NCBI RefSeq assembly: GCF_003334765.1
Contig: NZ_QOWT01000006.1
Direction: 5' to 3' (one strand)
Length of the DNA stretch: 64,000 nucleotides
DNA from: Escherichia coli
Lineage (GTDB): Bacteria > Pseudomonadota > Gammaproteobacteria > Enterobacterales > Enterobacteriaceae
Shown here: piece by piece, positions 539 to 5,974 of the stretch
How the letters are laid out: the number at the start of each line of letters is the position of its first letter
Numbering within the stretch: the stretch's first letter is position 1
Notes under the pieces: model-generated
What the model saw: only the letters and a program-made list of their open reading frames with translations
Told to the model about the DNA's origin: nothing
Database searches by the model: none
Translations under genes and position numbers: made by a program

Positions 539-1309
539 TCATCGCGTAGCTGTAAGCGGATAGTCCTGGTGCTGGCCTTCCTGTTCAAAACGTCCGGCCC
601 AGCCGGGGCGTTTAAAGGTGTAGTCTTTGGTCACCACGGAAGAAGGGCGGATTTGTGCGCTGTAGCGGAACTGGCTGATGCAGAGGGTGCTCACCTCGGT
701 ACGGGTGTTCGGGTTCCATGGGATTTCAAAAGATTCGGGCAGATGGCGGACTGTGTCGCACAGCACCAGGCTCTGGTCGGTACTTTTGTAAGCATGCTCC
801 TCATAAAAGAAGATGCCTTCCTCCGCCGCCATCCGGCACAGGAAATCGTAATCAGTCTCACCGTACTGGACACAAAACTCACGGGAAGGATGCGGCTCGC
901 TGAACAGCGGACTCCATTCGGTCACCCCGTTTTCCTGCAACATCGTGCCGAGGATGCTTTTGATGTCCTCGTTCTGGAAGATACGGAAGTTCTGGCGCAG
1001 ACCGGCACGCCACAGCGGCGGGTGCACCTTCATGCTGTACAGCATCTGGTTTTTGTCGTTCTCCCCGAGTTCAAACCAGGTCACCACGCCTTTCACCCGG
1101 CGCTGTACTTCATCGCCCTGCCATATCGTCAGGTAGGCCATTTTGTCCAGCACCTGCGCAAATTCAAGGGAGAGAAACTGCTGGCTGACCAGGGAGAGAT
1201 CGAGGGAAAAGAGCGAAGAGAGTGACTGGTTCAGATGAAAGGAAACCACCGCAAAAGCATCCGGCGGCAGGCCGTCCACTTCCAGTGTGAAACGTAATCC
1301 GGTTGACAT
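539..1309 (-). pseudogene. VgrG (type VI secretion spike) N-terminal fragment, truncated after about 256 codons
   Basis: ORF-track protein MSTGLRFTLEVDGLPPDAF... Start moved to the ATG at 1309, which has a CCTCC (GGAGG on minus) Shine-Dalgarno 5 nt upstream. The ORF stops at 539, far short of a full-length VgrG. Confidence 0.65.
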
Positions 1310-2128
1310 AGCAACCTCCGTGAAAATGAATAATAATCCGCACATATTGCATGTACAACATGTCGGGCGGATGAGATAAGCGAGTCGACATCTGGCGTTA
1401 CCGGGGAATATCAGAAAAATGTCATGGTTATGTGATGATTTAGTCTGGGATTTTACTTCAGAGAAACGGGTGTCTGTTTAGTCAACAAAATAATCACAAA
1501 CGCAACGGATGGGTTCTCGACGTTATTCACGACAGGCTCGTACATTACAGCGAGTAATAAAAAACCTGATATGCAAAGTCAAACCAATATTCATAATGTC
1601 TTTTTATTCACAACAATAAATAATTCAATAACAATCATTGAAATGAATGATGGTTTGTATAAGGAATATACGCTACCGCCCCACCCTGATAACATGATCT
1701 GCACATTGCCATCTTAACGTCGTTAAACACTAGCTTAATAGTGGATATTTCAAATTAGGAATTTATTAAATTCACCTGATGAATATAATAAGCAAATAGC
1801 ATAGAAAATAATGACAACTCCCCCGAGGGGACCATTTCCAAAGCACTGCACCACCACCTGGTGCCGGATGATCTTGCTTCAGTGGTAAGAGTACCTGATG
1901 CATTGTTCCCAAAATGGTGTTTTCCCCTGCCCCTCCAATAATGTGTAGCTCTCACTTGATAATCTATTGATTAGGTTATATTAAGAATCAACATTTAAAA
2001 TACATTCATTTTCTTGAATAAATCAACATGTTTATTAATCAATTGCTGTTTTAGCTCTGACTCATCAAGCTCTCCATATTTGTCCTACAGATAATTGCGA
2101 ATAAATACAGAGAACGCCATTTATCCTT

Positions 2129-2341
2129 TTAGCATACCTGCCGGATATTTTTATTTGTATTAATATTAATTGCATCTCCAACTCCGAGCATATCCATCAT
2201 TAAAAACATTTTGAGATTATAGAATGCCTGTGATAACAACTGAAACATCTGCACAATGTGAATAGTTAGTTTCTTTTCAGAGGAAATGAAATAGACACGC
2301 TGAATGAAAAGGAGAGTGATATAAATTAAAAAACATACCAT
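2129..2341 (-). CDS. yncH: small 70-aa protein of unknown function
   Basis: 70-codon ORF in an AT-rich segment; size and position between the rhs remnant and yncG match yncH. Confidence 0.5.
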   Translation of the reverse strand: MVCFLIYITLLFIQRVYFISSEKKLTIHIVQMFQLLSQAFYNLKMFLMMDMLGVGDAININTNKNIRQVC

Positions 2342-2416
2342 GAATTTAATTAATTACGCCCATCATTGTGGATAAAGTTACTGAATAATAAATAACATAA
2401 TCTTCTGGTATCCCAC

Positions 2417-3034
2417 TCAAATAATTTCATTCCTTTTTAATACTTCTTGTAATTTCGGTAACTGACATACAGCATCAGCAATCGCACTGATATTCGTGGC
2501 ATTATCCTGAAACCATTCATGCCCAGGCCCCCATGTGCGCATAGTGCAAAGATAACAGTCCACCAGCGTTAGTTGCTCACCAAACGCATAAGGTTCAGCA
2601 GTGAGCTGCGAATTCAACCAGATATAAAGCGATTTTCGATATTCAATAACATTCTTCTTTAACTGTTCAGGTGCGTCAGGAGCCCAACGCTCAGGGTAAT
2701 CGGCGAAAGTGAATGTTGGATAGACATTAGCAACCAGCCAGACCAATTGCCGTTGAAACAGCTGACGTTCGGCGCGCCCAACCGGTGGCGCAAGGTCCGG
2801 GCGACGATCGAGAACCATCAATGCAATCGCCGCTGTCTCCGTCATAATCTCGTCATTTTCCAATGCCAGTGTCGGAACCTGACACAACGGGTTCAGGGTT
2901 TTCAATAACTCGCGTGAAGCTCCCTCGTGGTCAAAACCACTGACATCAACGAACTGATAAGGAATATCAGCCAGTGTTAGCATCAGCTCACTGATTGTAG
3001 AGCCCCATCCGGGTACGCCATACACCTTAATCAT
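2417..3034 (-). CDS. yncG: glutathione S-transferase homologue
   Basis: 205-aa ORF with a thioredoxin-like N-terminus (MIKVYGVPGWGSTISEL); synteny next to ansP. Confidence 0.8.
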   Translation of the reverse strand: MIKVYGVPGWGSTISELMLTLADIPYQFVDVSGFDHEGASRELLKTLNPLCQVPTLALENDEIMTETAAIALMVLDRRPDLAPPVGRAERQLFQRQLVWLVANVYPTFTFADYPERWAPDAPEQLKKNVIEYRKSLYIWLNSQLTAEPYAFGEQLTLVDCYLCTMRTWGPGHEWFQDNATNISAIADAVCQLPKLQEVLKRNEII

Positions 3035-3300
3035 ATGCCCCTCACAATCTTTTAAAGATTAAGTGTAGGACAGTACACAGGTTAACCAGCAAAAGGATTT
3101 GTCATTTTTTCGTCAGTTGTATTAATCCCCTTCAGGATTGTAAGGGGATGTTTTGCATCGTTTATCGATAACGGGTAGGATGCTGCGCCGATAGTTTTAT
3201 ACCCATAAAGAATAATGGTGATAACTATCATCGCCAGGATGAATAAACATTGTTCATGGCAACTTATATGACTTTTTCATTAAAGCAATCAGGGAGAGCA

Positions 3301-4800
3301 ATGAGTAAACACGACACCGACACTTCAGATCAACACGCCGCGAAACGCCGCTGGCTTAATGCCCACGAAGAGGGGTATCACAAAGCGATGGGCAATCGCC
3401 AGGTGCAGATGATCGCCATTGGCGGCGCGATTGGCACCGGCTTGTTTTTAGGTGCAGGAGCCCGACTGCAAATGGCGGGGCCCGCACTGGCACTGGTTTA
3501 TTTAATTTGTGGCTTGTTTTCGTTTTTTATTCTGCGTGCATTGGGTGAGCTGGTGCTACACCGCCCTTCCAGTGGCAGTTTTGTTTCTTATGCCCGTGAG
3601 TTTTTGGGTGAGAAAGCCGCTTATGTTGCTGGCTGGATGTACTTCATCAACTGGGCGATGACGGGGATTGTTGATATTACCGCCGTCGCTCTGTATATGC
3701 ATTACTGGGGTGCGTTTGGCGGCGTGCCGCAGTGGGTCTTTGCGCTCGCTGCACTTACCATCGTTGGCACCATGAATATGATCGGTGTGAAATGGTTTGC
3801 GGAGATGGAGTTCTGGTTTGCGCTTATTAAAGTGCTCGCCATTGTGACCTTTTTGGTCGTGGGTACAGTGTTCCTCGGTAGTGGTCAGCCGCTGGATGGC
3901 AACACCACTGGCTTTCATTTAATCACCGATAATGGCGGCTTCTTCCCCCACGGTTTGCTGCCTGCGCTGGTGTTGATTCAGGGCGTAGTGTTTGCTTTTG
4001 CCTCCATTGAAATGGTGGGTACAGCTGCCGGAGAATGTAAAGATCCGCAGACCATGGTGCCTAAAGCCATTAACAGTGTGATTTGGCGTATTGGCCTGTT
4101 TTACGTCGGCTCCGTGGTGTTGCTGGTTATGTTATTGCCGTGGAGCGCGTATCAGGCGGGGCAAAGTCCGTTCGTGACGTTTTTCTCTAAACTGGGTGTG
4201 CCATATATCGGCAGCATTATGAACATTGTGGTGCTGACCGCTGCCCTCTCCAGCCTGAATTCAGGTCTGTACTGCACCGGACGTATTCTGCGCTCAATGG
4301 CGATGGGCGGTTCCGCACCGAGTTTTATGGCGAAAATGAGTCGTCAGCATGTGCCGTATGCCGGGATTCTGGCGACACTAGTTGTGTATGTCGTCGGCGT
4401 ATTCCTCAACTATCTGGTGCCGTCGCGCGTATTTGAGATTGTGTTGAACTTCGCGTCGCTGGGAATCATCGCTTCATGGGCGTTTATCATCGTGTGCCAG
4501 ATGCGCCTGCGTAAAGCGATTAAAGAAGGCAAAGCAGCGGATGTCAGTTTTAAACTGCCTGGCGCGCCCTTCACTTCCTGGCTGACATTACTGTTTTTAC
4601 TGAGTGTCCTTGTGCTGATGGCGTTCGATTACCCGAACGGGACTTATACTATCGCGGCGCTGCCGATTATCGGTATTTTGCTGGTTATAGGCTGGTTTGG
4701 TGTGCGCAAACGCGTTGCTGAAATTCACAGCACTGCGCCAGTCGTCGAGGAAGATGAAGAAAAACAGGAAATTGTGTTTAAGCCTGAAACGGCGAGTTAA
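3301..4800 (+). CDS. ansP: L-asparagine permease (APC family amino acid transporter)
   Basis: 499 codons from the ATG at 3301, preceded by AGGGAGAG. Multi-TM protein; the track ORF starts 17 codons further upstream but 3301 has the better RBS and gives the expected length. Confidence 0.9.
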   Translation: MSKHDTDTSDQHAAKRRWLNAHEEGYHKAMGNRQVQMIAIGGAIGTGLFLGAGARLQMAGPALALVYLICGLFSFFILRALGELVLHRPSSGSFVSYAREFLGEKAAYVAGWMYFINWAMTGIVDITAVALYMHYWGAFGGVPQWVFALAALTIVGTMNMIGVKWFAEMEFWFALIKVLAIVTFLVVGTVFLGSGQPLDGNTTGFHLITDNGGFFPHGLLPALVLIQGVVFAFASIEMVGTAAGECKDPQTMVPKAINSVIWRIGLFYVGSVVLLVMLLPWSAYQAGQSPFVTFFSKLGVPYIGSIMNIVVLTAALSSLNSGLYCTGRILRSMAMGGSAPSFMAKMSRQHVPYAGILATLVVYVVGVFLNYLVPSRVFEIVLNFASLGIIASWAFIIVCQMRLRKAIKEGKAADVSFKLPGAPFTSWLTLLFLLSVLVLMAFDYPNGTYTIAALPIIGILLVIGWFGVRKRVAEIHSTAPVVEEDEEKQEIVFKPETAS

Positions 4801-4912: not shown

Positions 4913-5974
4913 TTACAGCGCAATACGAATCACATCGTCTGGCTGGGTAGCTTCCTGCTGTTTAGTGGATTTTTGTTTCACACTGACATACAGCGTTTTG
5001 CCATCGGCAGACAGCGCCAGGCTGTTTGGATGAGTCGGCGTATCGAACGTTTTCACCACTTTATAGCTTTTCGCGTCAATCACACTGACTTTACCTGCCT
5101 GACGATGCGTTACGTAGGCTTCATTACGCGCGGGGTTAAACAGCACAGCCAGTGATTCCGGTGCCGCAACCTTCGTCAGAATATTGCCATTACGGGTATC
5201 GACCACTAACACTTCTGCGGCTTTAGAATCGGTGATAAATGCACGCTGCCTGGCGGTATCAAGGCTAATGTTGATAAAGAAGTGCTCTTTGCCGTCATCC
5301 AGCAGCTTTTTACGGCTGAGGATTTTATTGTCGGCGGTGTCGATGGTAATCAATTCGCCGTCAGCGTTAGTGGTGTAAAGACGTTTGCCTTCGCTATCCA
5401 GCGCCAGACCGGTACTCATTTTACCGGTGTTCTGGATGGCGGTTTTCAGTTTGATATTCCCGCCATCAACGACCCAAATCACGCTCTCTTTACCAATACC
5501 ACTGATGTAAACGGTGTTCGTGGCATCGTCAGCTACCAGCTCACGCGGTTGCAGCGGGCGCACCTCTTCCGTGCGCTTACGATCATCCAGCACCAGACGG
5601 CCTTTCACTTCGCCCGTTTTGGCATCTATCGCCGTGACCGCGCTGTTTACGGTGTTACCAAACCACAACGTCTGAGTCGTGTTATTGATGGTGGCACCAA
5701 ACGGCTTGAGATCGTTATGGATCGCCTGCGTCACTTCCAGAGTGACCGGATCAAGACGATAAACCACGCCACCTTTATCCAGTTTGCGGCTTTGCGAAGT
5801 GGCGAGCCACAGCGCGTTTTCTTGCTGGCTATAAGCCATTTCGTAGGCACCTTTACCTACCGCTTTACGCAGCATTTCTTCTGCGGCCTGCGTACTGAAT
5901 GATGAAACAACAAGCAATGAACCTAACAGTAATGAACCACGCAGGCGCGATGAAAACAGATGACGTAAATGCAT
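4913..5974 (-). CDS. yncE: secreted seven-bladed beta-propeller protein (PQQ-like repeats)
   Basis: 353-aa ORF with a signal peptide (MHLRHLFSSRLRGSLLLGSLLVVSSFSTQA) and repeated propeller blades; divergent from yncD. Confidence 0.85.
   Translation of the reverse strand: MHLRHLFSSRLRGSLLLGSLLVVSSFSTQAAEEMLRKAVGKGAYEMAYSQQENALWLATSQSRKLDKGGVVYRLDPVTLEVTQAIHNDLKPFGATINNTTQTLWFGNTVNSAVTAIDAKTGEVKGRLVLDDRKRTEEVRPLQPRELVADDATNTVYISGIGKESVIWVVDGGNIKLKTAIQNTGKMSTGLALDSEGKRLYTTNADGELITIDTADNKILSRKKLLDDGKEHFFINISLDTARQRAFITDSKAAEVLVVDTRNGNILTKVAAPESLAVLFNPARNEAYVTHRQAGKVSVIDAKSYKVVKTFDTPTHPNSLALSADGKTLYVSVKQKSTKQQEATQPDDVIRIAL

What the first reader, a model, noticed from the sequence alone, without database searches (positions are those of the whole stretch)
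1346..2416. AT-rich 1-kb block upstream of the vgrG remnant containing yncH and no other convincing gene
This is the longest non-coding stretch in the window (about 780 bp between the vgrG start and yncH). It is strongly AT-rich with many A/T tracts, a composition typical of horizontally acquired, H-NS-bound DNA, and it flanks the rhs remnant. It contains a short GC-richer patch (about 1820-1960) and one weak 66-codon ORF (1755-1955, minus strand) without a ribosome-binding site. It could hold the promoter of the former vgrG-rhs operon or an unannotated small RNA.
Basis: seen in the sequence. Interest (0 to 1): 0.3.

Follow-up and report, generated by a model that had tools for sequence, protein, structure and literature searches.

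The report
AT-rich silenced spacer upstream of vgrG
This is the ordinary AT-rich, H-NS-bound spacer of E. coli that once carried the control region of a now-broken type VI secretion "vgrG-rhs" toxin operon, next to a doubtful orphan gene (yncH); the only fresh detail is a short conserved boundary element.

Summary
Window 1346-2416 has 35.2% G+C against a 49.3% window mean. It is the most AT-rich kilobase of the 64 kb and holds the longest annotated gene-free gap (819 bp, 1310-2128).

The locus is the E. coli yncG-yncH-vgrE'-rhsE' junction, and the block is a mosaic:
- **1310-~1814:** upstream leader of the orphan vgrG (EHEC "vgrG2/vgrE"). It is found unchanged upstream of intact vgrG in other strains, and at about 81% identity upstream of the cusS-linked vgrG.
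- **~1815-2128:** a strain-variable spacer with a 51% G+C patch that shows no protein or RNA signal.
- **2129-2341:** yncH (DUF5445), found only in Escherichia and evolving at dN/dS of about 1.

Published K-12 data place an H-NS site, an in-vitro sigma-70 RNA polymerase site and a weak PhoB ChIP peak in this spacer. Nothing supports a small RNA, a hidden gene or an invertible switch.

The one new detail is a 50-bp block (1671-1720). It is present in 5291 of 5426 E. coli genomes at the edge where different T6SS cargo sets or ISAs1 ends begin, and it is more conserved than its flanks. It may be a promoter/operator or simply a recombination boundary.

Verdict: real, ordinary and largely already known.

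The parts
551..1309 (-). 5' remnant of vgrG (tssI; 'vgrE'/EHEC vgrG2), a pseudogene fused to an rhs remnant on its left. Start ATG at 1307-1309, Shine-Dalgarno GGAGG at 1315-1319.
   Evidence: RefSeq annotation of the 100%-identical genome. ORF translation MSTGLRF... is identical to intact VgrG in L003.
1310..1667 (-). Weakly conserved proximal leader / upstream region of vgrG. In K-12 the rhsE remnant is joined directly to it at about window 1377.
   Evidence: 53-93% identity to the cusS-locus copy, while the vgrG 5' coding sequence is ~100% identical. K-12 genomes match only from query position 32. RNA fold z-score -1.48, not remarkable.
1409..1426 (+). Pho-box-like direct repeat TATCAGAAAAATGTCATG, oriented away from vgrG.
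   Evidence: This exact motif is reported for a weak (score 1) PhoB ChIP-seq peak at NC_000913.3 position 1,527,862, flagged H-NS-bound (PMC10294691). It is not conserved in the cusS paralogue.
1554..1582 (-). Promoter-like TTGACT-17-TATTAC, the hexamers proposed for the sigma-70 genomic-SELEX site of the yncH>rhsE spacer.
   Evidence: PMC3946193; located here in the sequence. The spacer carries an 8-bp deletion in the cusS paralogue, so it is not conserved.
1671..1720 (-). 'Block B', a 50-bp conserved element. On the minus strand it reads CGTTAAGATGGCAATGTGCAGATCATGTTATCAGGGTGGGGCGGTAGCGT. It includes an invariant -10-like TAAGAT/TATGAT (1711-1716) and overlaps the promoter-like TTATCA-16-TATATT (1692->1665).
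   Evidence: A 96-nt query centred on it matches 5291 of 5426 E. coli genomes. It is 76-94% identical between allele types against 45-88% for the adjacent 64 nt; Fisher p 2e-4 to 9e-3 in five of six comparisons. Cargo-specific sequence starts right after it in at least six contexts. Promoter scans.
1758..1775 (-). 'Block A', GGAATTTATTAAATTCAC, the second conserved patch of the ~130-bp boundary module (1668-1800). Homology with the cusS-locus island ends at about 1814.
   Evidence: Alignments A2 and A3; BLAST end point at 1814.
1819..1831 (-). Short GC hairpin TCCCCTCGGGGGA, a weak terminator-like site downstream of yncH.
   Evidence: Pattern scan found 1 site against 1.6 expected by chance, so it is not significant.
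1810..1955 (.). GC-normal patch (51% G+C) containing the 66-codon ORF (1755-1955, minus strand) and a start-less 49-codon open frame on the plus strand. No detectable function.
   Evidence: Composition. The only protein hits are ORF calls on the same E. coli locus. No NCBIfam or PADLOC family. RNA fold z-scores -0.5 and -0.1. Present in 3576 of 5426 genomes, never annotated.
2129..2341 (-). yncH, DUF5445, 70 codons, 31% G+C, no Shine-Dalgarno sequence. An orphan gene restricted to Escherichia.
   Evidence: Pfam PF17520, E = 1e-40. All 157 database relatives are Escherichia, with the listed ones at 83% identity or more. dN/dS 0.7-2.2, against 0.10-0.18 (one near-identical pair 0.73) for yncG and about 0.02 for ansP.
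2342..2416 (.). AT-rich spacer between yncH and the stop codon of yncG (yncG = 2417-3034, minus strand, GST-like).

Best explanation
The block is xenogeneic, H-NS-coated intergenic DNA at the E. coli ansP/yncG-rhsE hot spot, made of three pieces.

1. **1310-~1814.** This is the upstream control region (promoter or promoters plus a long leader) of an orphan T6SS auxiliary operon, vgrG('vgrE')-rhsE. The operon is destroyed in this strain, so the control region is vestigial here. In strains with the intact operon, sigma-70 RNA polymerase would start somewhere in this segment and H-NS would keep it silent.
2. **~1815-2128.** Filler DNA with no function I can detect.
3. **yncH.** A young orphan ORF that is not under detectable protein-level constraint.

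Shown here: composition, gene content, homology relations and conservation pattern. Taken from the literature on the K-12 orthologue: H-NS binding, RNA polymerase binding in vitro, and weak PhoB binding in vivo. Inferred: which hexamers are the real promoter, and that the conserved 50-bp block B (-10-like TAAGAT plus the next ~35 nt) is the promoter/operator or the conserved 5' end of the transcript.
For: - Lowest G+C of the whole window.
- The same ~820-bp spacer lies upstream of intact vgrG-DcrB-Rhs or vgrG-Rhs operons in L075, L077 and L079.
- A paralogous copy (window 1371-1785; BLAST alignment reaching 1814) lies upstream of the intact cusS-linked vgrG.
- K-12 genomic SELEX records an RpoD holoenzyme site and an H-NS site in the yncH>rhsE spacer (PMC3946193).
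- A PhoB ChIP peak with its motif at 1409-1426 is flagged H-NS-bound (PMC10294691).
- Block B is present in 97.5% of E. coli genomes and is more conserved than its flank.
- A -10-like TAAGAT/TATGAT keeps A at position 2 and T at position 6 in all allele types.
- In EHEC, swapping the promoter of the paralogous vgrG1 did not yield protein, which hints at control through the leader (PMC13141884).
- yncH has dN/dS of about 1 and no Shine-Dalgarno sequence.
Against: - I could not obtain any transcription start site, RNA-seq or ChIP track for this strain. The supplements I tried were truncated or not held.
- Promoter-like hexamer pairs are not enriched: 3 found against 7.3 +/- 2.5 in shuffles.
- The SELEX authors' hexamers are not conserved in the paralogue. 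The best conserved candidate (TTAAGC-16-TAAGAT) is weak.
- The H-NS and RNA polymerase evidence comes from K-12, not this strain, and the RNA polymerase evidence is in vitro.
- Block B is also kept in strains with no T6SS cargo at the locus (L006). That fits a passive boundary as well as a regulator.
Confidence: 0.6

Rival explanations
1. Block B and the ~130-bp module have no regulatory role. They are simply the last stretch of conserved flank at a recombination / ISAs1-insertion hot spot where cargo sets are exchanged, and their similarity is kept up by recombination and gene conversion. This is not exclusive of the best explanation.
For: - ISAs1 terminal repeats (CAGGGAAAGATYACG...) abut or cut into block B in the L005-, L006- and L124-type alleles. 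An ISAs1 copy also closes the far end of the islands.
- At least six different sequences start right after GCGGTAGCGT.
- L004 differs from the otherwise near-identical L007 by a patch inside block B that matches the window type.
- The vgrG 5' coding sequence is ~100% identical between the two loci, showing active conversion.
- There is a recombination breakpoint near 2129: 1 difference in 819 against 10 in 213, window versus L077.
Against: - Conversion alone does not explain why the 50 bp stay 76-92% identical between divergent allele types while the adjacent alignable 64 nt fall to 45-67%.
- Block B shares only CAGGG with the ISAs1 repeat.
Confidence: 0.3
2. The region encodes an unannotated small RNA, either in the GC patch or in the conserved module.
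For: Only circumstantial: a conserved non-coding block and a short GC hairpin at 1819-1831.
Against: - No Rfam match at E <= 1.
- Fold z-scores of -0.5 and -0.1 for the patch, and +0.5 for the window-type module (-1.95 to +0.8 across the other allele types).
- No promoter-terminator pair.
- The terminator-like hairpin seen in L005-type alleles is formed with ISAs1-derived sequence that is absent here.
Confidence: 0.05
3. The GC patch is the remnant, or a live copy, of a protein-coding gene: either the 66-codon minus-strand ORF or the plus-strand frame ...SPEGTISKALHHHLVPDDLASVVRVPDALFPKWCFPLPLQ*.
For: G+C jumps to 51% and two frames stay open.
Against: - In a 5.8-billion-protein search, the only hits are ORF calls on this same E. 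coli locus.
- No family match.
- No start codon or Shine-Dalgarno sequence.
- Never annotated in 3576 genomes.
- Similarity to the vgrG 5' end is limited to 21 nt; 8 of 500 shuffles score as well.
Confidence: 0.03
4. Segment 1272-1856 is an invertible switch flanked by inverted repeats 1251-1271 and 1857-1877. Flipping it would separate the vgrG start and promoter from the gene body.
For: - A 21-nt inverted repeat, 17 of 21 complementary.
- Two metagenome contigs from different samples (L072, L073) carry exactly this segment inverted, with the crossover in GCCGGATG.
Against: - None of the 3842 complete genomes matching the junction query carries it in one piece.
- No hit in the metagenome contig collection that was scanned.
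- The left ends of both contigs keep the complete right arm, which does not fit a simple reciprocal inversion.
- The repeat is barely above chance.
- No recombinase gene lies nearby.
Confidence: 0.03

Closest known systems
Rhs elements of E. coli (RhsE with its upstream vgr gene and distal H-rpt/ISAs1), i.e. orphan vgrG-rhs T6SS auxiliary islands (EHEC vgrG2/'vgrE' locus Z2253-Z2262 and vgrG1 locus Z0700-Z0707)
   Same: Same chromosomal site (yncG/yncH-rhsE-ydcD-ISAs1-pptA). Same VgrG N-terminus. Same island make-up of vgrG, optional DcrB/EagR chaperone, PAAR-Rhs and ISAs1 (PMC7216683, PMC12981562, PMC3032704).
   Different: Here the operon is decayed to a 759-bp vgrG stub fused to an rhs fragment. 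In the papers I read, the upstream spacer itself is not described beyond genome-scale binding tables.
H-NS-silenced AT-rich xenogeneic DNA in E. coli K-12
   Same: Low G+C relative to the genome, patchy distribution, reported H-NS binding, and an RNA polymerase site overlapping an H-NS site.
   Different: Nothing unusual. H-NS occupancy was not measured in this strain.
h3R, the regulatory hcp3-vgrG3 intergenic region of the EHEC main T6SS cluster (PMC13141884)
   Same: A non-coding region directly upstream of a vgrG gene that limits VgrG production. The same paper suspects similar control at the orphan vgrG1, whose leader is the ~81% paralogue of this one.
   Different: No sequence homology beyond the 21 nt that span the ribosome-binding site and start codon. 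h3R is ~209 bp long; in the Sakai copy its sequence is visibly G+C-rich with a terminator hairpin (read by eye, not computed). This leader is about 360-500 bp long and AT-rich.
Orphan vgrG islands of Pseudomonas aeruginosa controlled by RpoN/Sfa2 and RsmA (PMC8855297, listed but not read)
   Same: The concept of a shared cis-element that coordinates scattered vgrG islands.
   Different: No sigma-54 -24/-12 motif in block B by my own inspection of the sequence, and no GGA-type CsrA/RsmA site. The comparison rests partly on my own knowledge.

Membership tests
H-NS-bound xenogeneic AT-rich DNA | G+C clearly below the genome or neighbourhood average | tested here: met
   35.2% against 49.3%; the lowest 1071-bp window in 64 kb.
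H-NS-bound xenogeneic AT-rich DNA | Patchy, lineage-restricted distribution | tested here: met
   The full block is in 3552 of 5426 E. coli genomes, with other alleles or absence in the rest. Outside E. coli, only an Escherichia sp. genome and one 'Citrobacter' MAG among 100,044 species representatives.
H-NS-bound xenogeneic AT-rich DNA | H-NS occupancy in vivo and derepression in a delta-hns strain | not testable with these tools
   The literature on the K-12 orthologue reports an H-NS genomic-SELEX site and an 'H-NS-bound' flag (PMC3946193, PMC10294691). No expression data.
Sigma-70 promoter / 5' leader of a T6SS vgrG-rhs operon | Lies directly upstream of vgrG, on the same strand, and is retained with intact operons | tested here: met
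   L075, L077, L079 and L003.
Sigma-70 promoter / 5' leader of a T6SS vgrG-rhs operon | Recognisable and conserved -35/-10 elements | tested here: inconclusive
   Four candidates on the minus strand: 1738->1711, 1692->1665, 1582->1554 and 1357->1330. Only the -10-like TAAGAT at 1711-1716 is kept in all allele types. There is no enrichment over shuffles.
Sigma-70 promoter / 5' leader of a T6SS vgrG-rhs operon | Mapped transcription start site / RNA polymerase binding | not testable with these tools
   In-vitro RpoD holoenzyme binding is reported for the K-12 spacer. The TSS supplements were truncated or not held.
Small regulatory RNA gene | Match to a curated RNA family, or own promoter plus intrinsic terminator plus stable or covarying structure | tested here: not met
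   No Rfam match. Fold z-scores are not significant. One chance-level terminator-like site.
DUF5445 / YncH protein family (yncH) | Significant match to the Pfam model | tested here: met
   PF17520, E = 9.7e-41, residues 19-70.
DUF5445 / YncH protein family (yncH) | Behaves as a functional protein-coding gene (purifying selection, ribosome-binding site) | tested here: not met
   dN/dS 0.7-2.2 from 6-14 substitutions per pair, so statistical power is small. No Shine-Dalgarno sequence before the ATG. The annotated length varies from 62 to 100 aa between strains.
Invertible DNA switch (inverton) | Both orientations found among genomes, flanking inverted repeats, and a recombinase | tested here: not met
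   A weak inverted repeat exists, but the inverted junction is in 0 of the 3842 complete genomes that match the junction query.
ISAs1 (H-rpt) terminal inverted repeat | Block B matches the IS end CAGGG(A/C)AAGAT(T/C)ACG... | tested here: not met
   Only CAGGG is shared. True ISAs1 ends lie next to block B in other alleles but not in this window.

The most novel reading that the evidence does not exclude
The ~130-bp module (blocks A and B, window 1668-1800), and especially the 50-bp block B, is a dedicated cis-regulatory element. It would combine a weak activator-dependent -10 with a conserved operator or a conserved first ~35 nt of the transcript. E. coli would keep it at both orphan T6SS cargo sites (next to ansP and cusS) to control whatever effector set is plugged in behind it. 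It could be the target of the unexplained block on orphan VgrG production seen in EHEC.
Probability: 0.25. Interest if true: 0.45.

Novelty: already known. Interest (0 to 1): 0.15.

Why it matters
As it stands, the finding matters little. It confirms that a compositional outlier in the window is the expected H-NS-type silenced spacer next to a decayed Rhs/T6SS island, already covered by K-12 annotation and genome-wide binding studies.

It has two modest uses. First, it flags yncH as a probably non-functional orphan ORF. Second, it points to a short conserved element at the cargo boundary of both orphan vgrG islands. That element is a cheap, testable candidate for how E. coli keeps orphan T6SS effector operons off. 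EHEC workers state this as an open question: the natural activating signals and the transcription factors for the T6SS island and the orphan effectors are still unknown (PMC13141884).

Tried and rejected
- **Rfam** at a permissive threshold over 1000-3400: no match.
- **tRNA/tmRNA genes and tandem repeats:** none.
- **RNA folding** of the leader, the GC patch and the module in six allele types: no significant stability.
- **Protein search with the plus-strand frame of the GC patch:** only self-locus ORF calls.
- **NCBIfam and PADLOC scans** of the small ORFs and yncH: nothing.
- **GC patch as an inverted vgrG 5' remnant:** similarity is limited to 21 nt, and 8 of 500 shuffles score as well.
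- **Homology to the EHEC h3R regulatory region:** none beyond the ribosome-binding site and start codon.
- **Repeat of the core at the far end of the island (att-like):** none in L001. No direct repeats at the cusS-island junctions.
- **Fur box, CRP, sigma-54, sigma-E and IHF readings of block B by eye:** none convincing. These were not computed, so no claim is made.
- **uORF MCRSCYQGGAVAY through block B:** the frame stays open, but CRSC becomes CRLR in the L007 type and there is no Shine-Dalgarno sequence. Too few changes to decide.
- **Invertible switch:** rejected.
- **Published TSS tables:** the Cappable-seq GTF is truncated in storage, the SMRT-Cappable-seq supplements lack these coordinates, and the dRNA-seq paper is not held.
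- **Exact indel boundaries of the yncH cassette against yncH-less alleles:** the sequences are too diverged to align.

Full report
**Observation.** The sequence at 1346-2416 is as described. G+C is 35.2%, against 49.3% for the whole window. For 1071-bp windows the mean is 0.492 and the sd 0.037, and the lowest such window in all 64 kb starts at 1411. The gene-free stretch between the vgrG start (ATG at 1307-1309, minus strand) and yncH (2129-2341, minus) is 819 bp. It exceeds every other annotated gap I could check in a 100%-identical genome. The GC-richer patch (1810-1955, 51% G+C) exists. So does the 66-codon GTG-initiated ORF without a Shine-Dalgarno sequence. A/T tracts are frequent, but exactly as frequent as the composition predicts.

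**What the locus is.** The window is E. coli. It is 100% identical to strain HSP425 and 99.8% identical to K-12 from position 1377 onward. In window order, the genes read rhs' remnant, vgrG' remnant (551-1309), the gap, yncH, yncG and ansP. All except ansP are on the minus strand. This is the classical RhsE site, and the EHEC literature calls its vgrG "vgrE" or vgrG2 (Z2262). K-12 has lost the vgrG stub entirely, and its rhsE fragment joins the spacer at about window 1377.

**Comparative anatomy: the block is a mosaic.**

- **Segment 1 (1310 to ~1814).** This segment travels with vgrG.
  - In Escherichia sp. E4742 and two E. coli strains, the same ~820-bp spacer precedes intact vgrG-DcrB-Rhs or vgrG-Rhs operons.
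  - A paralogous copy, about 81% identical, precedes the intact vgrG inserted between cusS and nfrB (EHEC vgrG1).
  - Between these two loci the vgrG 5' coding sequence is ~100% identical. The leader, by contrast, falls to 53-65% near the gene and rises to 88-95% at 1660-1780.
- **Segment 2 (~1815-2128).** This includes the GC patch. It occurs in 3576 of 5426 genomes and is never annotated.
- **Segment 3 (yncH).**
- **Other alleles of the ansP site.** They lack yncH, or both yncH and yncG, and carry other cargo:
  - PAAR-vgrG-M35 peptidase;
  - a putative HExxH effector and lipoprotein followed by vgrG-DcrB-Rhs;
  - ISAs1 followed by PAAR-Rhs;
  - an array of small ORFs;
  - nothing but an ISAs1 copy.
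- **Recombination breakpoint.** A breakpoint sits near 2129. Against L077, the window differs at 1 of 819 non-coding positions but at 10 of 213 in yncH.

**Published experimental data for the K-12 orthologue.**

- Genomic SELEX lists an RpoD-holoenzyme binding site and an H-NS site in the yncH>rhsE spacer, and proposes TTGACT-17-TATTAC. I locate these hexamers at window 1582->1554 (PMC3946193).
- PhoB ChIP-seq reports a weak peak at position 1,527,862 with the motif TATCAGAAAAATGTCATG. This is window 1409-1426 on the plus strand, pointing away from vgrG. The peak is flagged as lying in a known H-NS-bound region (PMC10294691). The motif is not conserved in the paralogue, so I regard it as incidental.
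- A weak FlhDC SELEX peak maps to about window 2069 (PMC9962212).
- RpoN and RpoS SELEX peaks listed beside yncH lie inside rhsE/ydcD, not in this block.
- In EHEC, the orphan vgrG islands do not depend on the main T6SS promoter. Swapping the vgrG1 promoter gave no VgrG1, and the authors suspect post-transcriptional repression (PMC13141884). Their characterised h3R element is not homologous to this leader.

**Promoter candidates (inference).** Four candidates lie on the vgrG strand:

| Candidate | Window position | Conservation |
|---|---|---|
| TTAAGC-16-TAAGAT | 1738->1711 | -10-like hexamer kept in all allele types |
| TTATCA-16-TATATT | 1692->1665 | the -35-like hexamer and spacer are well conserved; the -10 is lost in three allele types |
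| TTGACT-17-TATTAC | 1582->1554 | spacing destroyed in the cusS paralogue |
| TGTACA-16-TATTAT | 1357->1330 | spacing destroyed in the cusS paralogue |

The -10-like TAAGAT/TATGAT is the only element that keeps its key positions (A at position 2, T at position 6) in every allele type. Promoter-like pairs are not enriched over shuffles. None of these candidates is verified.

**The conserved boundary element.**

- **Distribution.** A 96-nt query around 1650-1745 matches 5291 of 5426 E. coli genomes, at one to three places per genome. Among 100,044 species representatives, the 21-nt invariant pattern gave genuine homologues only in an Escherichia sp. and in one MAG labelled Citrobacter.
- **Conservation.** Between the four deepest allele types, the 50-bp block B (1671-1720) is 76-94% identical, while the adjacent alignable 64 nt are 45-88% identical. 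Fisher p is 2e-4 to 9e-3 for five of the six pairs.
- **Position at the cargo boundary.** In 137 loci, the sequence immediately after GCGGTAGCGT falls into at least six unrelated classes.
- **ISAs1 ends.**
  - In the L005- and L124-type alleles, the junction is formed by an ISAs1 terminal repeat.
  - In the cargo-less L006 allele, the same repeat cuts into block B.
  - The repeat is CAGGGAAAGATYACG..., identified from the ydcC copy.
  - ISAs1 copies also close the far ends of both islands.

Block B is therefore either a functional promoter/operator kept by selection, or the last piece of conserved flank at an ISAs1/recombination hot spot, or both. I cannot separate these readings with sequence alone.

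**yncH and the GC patch.**

- **yncH.**
  - It matches Pfam DUF5445.
  - Every relative found in a 5.8-billion-protein collection is from Escherichia, and the listed ones are at least 83% identical.
  - Pairwise dN/dS is 0.7-2.2 (8 of 10 differences are non-synonymous). In the same strains yncG gives 0.10-0.18 (one near-identical pair 0.73) and ansP about 0.02. The counts are small.
  - There is no Shine-Dalgarno sequence, and the called length varies between strains.
  - The literature offers only screen hits and no function.
- **GC patch.** It has no protein relatives beyond ORF calls on the same locus, no family match and no RNA-structure signal.

**A side observation: an apparent inversion.** One of those protein hits was a 40-aa fusion of the VgrG start with the patch frame. 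It comes from two metagenome contigs in which 1251-1878 is inverted, at a 21-nt imperfect inverted repeat (1251-1271 / 1857-1877). None of the 3842 complete genomes that match this junction query carries it in one piece. A metagenome scan found nothing. The contig ends also do not fit a clean reciprocal inversion. I treat it as a rare rearrangement or an assembly artefact, not a switch.

**Verdict.** It is also ordinary and largely already documented for K-12. The block is H-NS-type silenced, horizontally acquired spacer DNA. It carries the vestigial control region of a decayed orphan vgrG-rhs operon and a dubious orphan gene. The only new element is the conserved 50-bp block at the cargo boundary, which deserves a simple reporter test but no more than low interest until then.

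Noticed in passing
window 1251-1271 and 1857-1877; L072 1-628 and L073 1-628: Two metagenome contigs from different samples carry window 1251-1878 inverted and joined to 1865 onward. The crossover lies in GCCGGATG inside a 17/21 inverted repeat, and it creates a 40-aa VgrG-start fusion ORF. The junction is absent from all complete E. coli genomes and from the metagenome contig collection that was scanned.
   Followed up: partly
window 2129-2341 (yncH): yncH evolves at dN/dS of about 1 (8 of 10 differences non-synonymous), has no Shine-Dalgarno sequence and is found only in Escherichia. Its status as a functional gene is doubtful.
   Followed up: yes
window 900-1309 versus L003 5540-5950: The 5' 400 bp of vgrG are ~100% identical between the ansP-linked and cusS-linked loci, while the adjoining leaders are only 53-95% identical. 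This suggests gene conversion that homogenises vgrG paralogues and stops at the start codon.
   Followed up: partly
window ~2129 (boundary between the spacer and yncH): Recombination breakpoint. Against L077, the 819 non-coding bases differ at 1 position, but yncH differs at 10 of 213 and yncG at 26 of 615.
   Followed up: partly
L005 ~4975-5000, L006 4988-5005, L124/L169 just after the core: ISAs1-family terminal inverted repeats (CAGGGAAAGATYACG...) lie directly next to or inside block B in several alleles. In L005-type alleles, block B plus the IS end fold into a terminator-like hairpin followed by U6.
   Followed up: partly
L006 5369-5470, L007 5386-5487, L066 5491-5613 (homologous to window ~2732-2855): Strains without yncG still carry a ~100-bp, 68%-identical relic of the yncG coding sequence. 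yncG was therefore lost from these lineages, not gained by the others.
   Followed up: no
window 1409-1426: A Pho-box-like repeat coincides with a published weak PhoB ChIP-seq peak in K-12. It points away from vgrG and is not conserved in the paralogous leader.
   Followed up: partly
window 1759-1772 and 2342-2355: A 14-nt direct repeat (GAATTTATTAAATT / GAATTTAATTAATT, 86%) brackets the hairpin, the GC patch and yncH (583-bp spacing). The yncH-containing piece may be an indel between these repeats. Alleles without yncH were too diverged to confirm this.
   Followed up: partly
window ~1377: K-12-lineage genomes match the window only from here rightward. Their rhsE fragment is fused directly to the leader, so K-12 has a larger deletion than this strain, which keeps 759 bp of vgrG.
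   Followed up: partly
L131 (metagenome contig), upstream of its core match: High-G+C DNA that does not look like E. coli abuts AACAACGTTAAGATG of a cusS-type module, followed by vgrG-DcrB-Rhs. This is probably a chimeric assembly.
   Followed up: no
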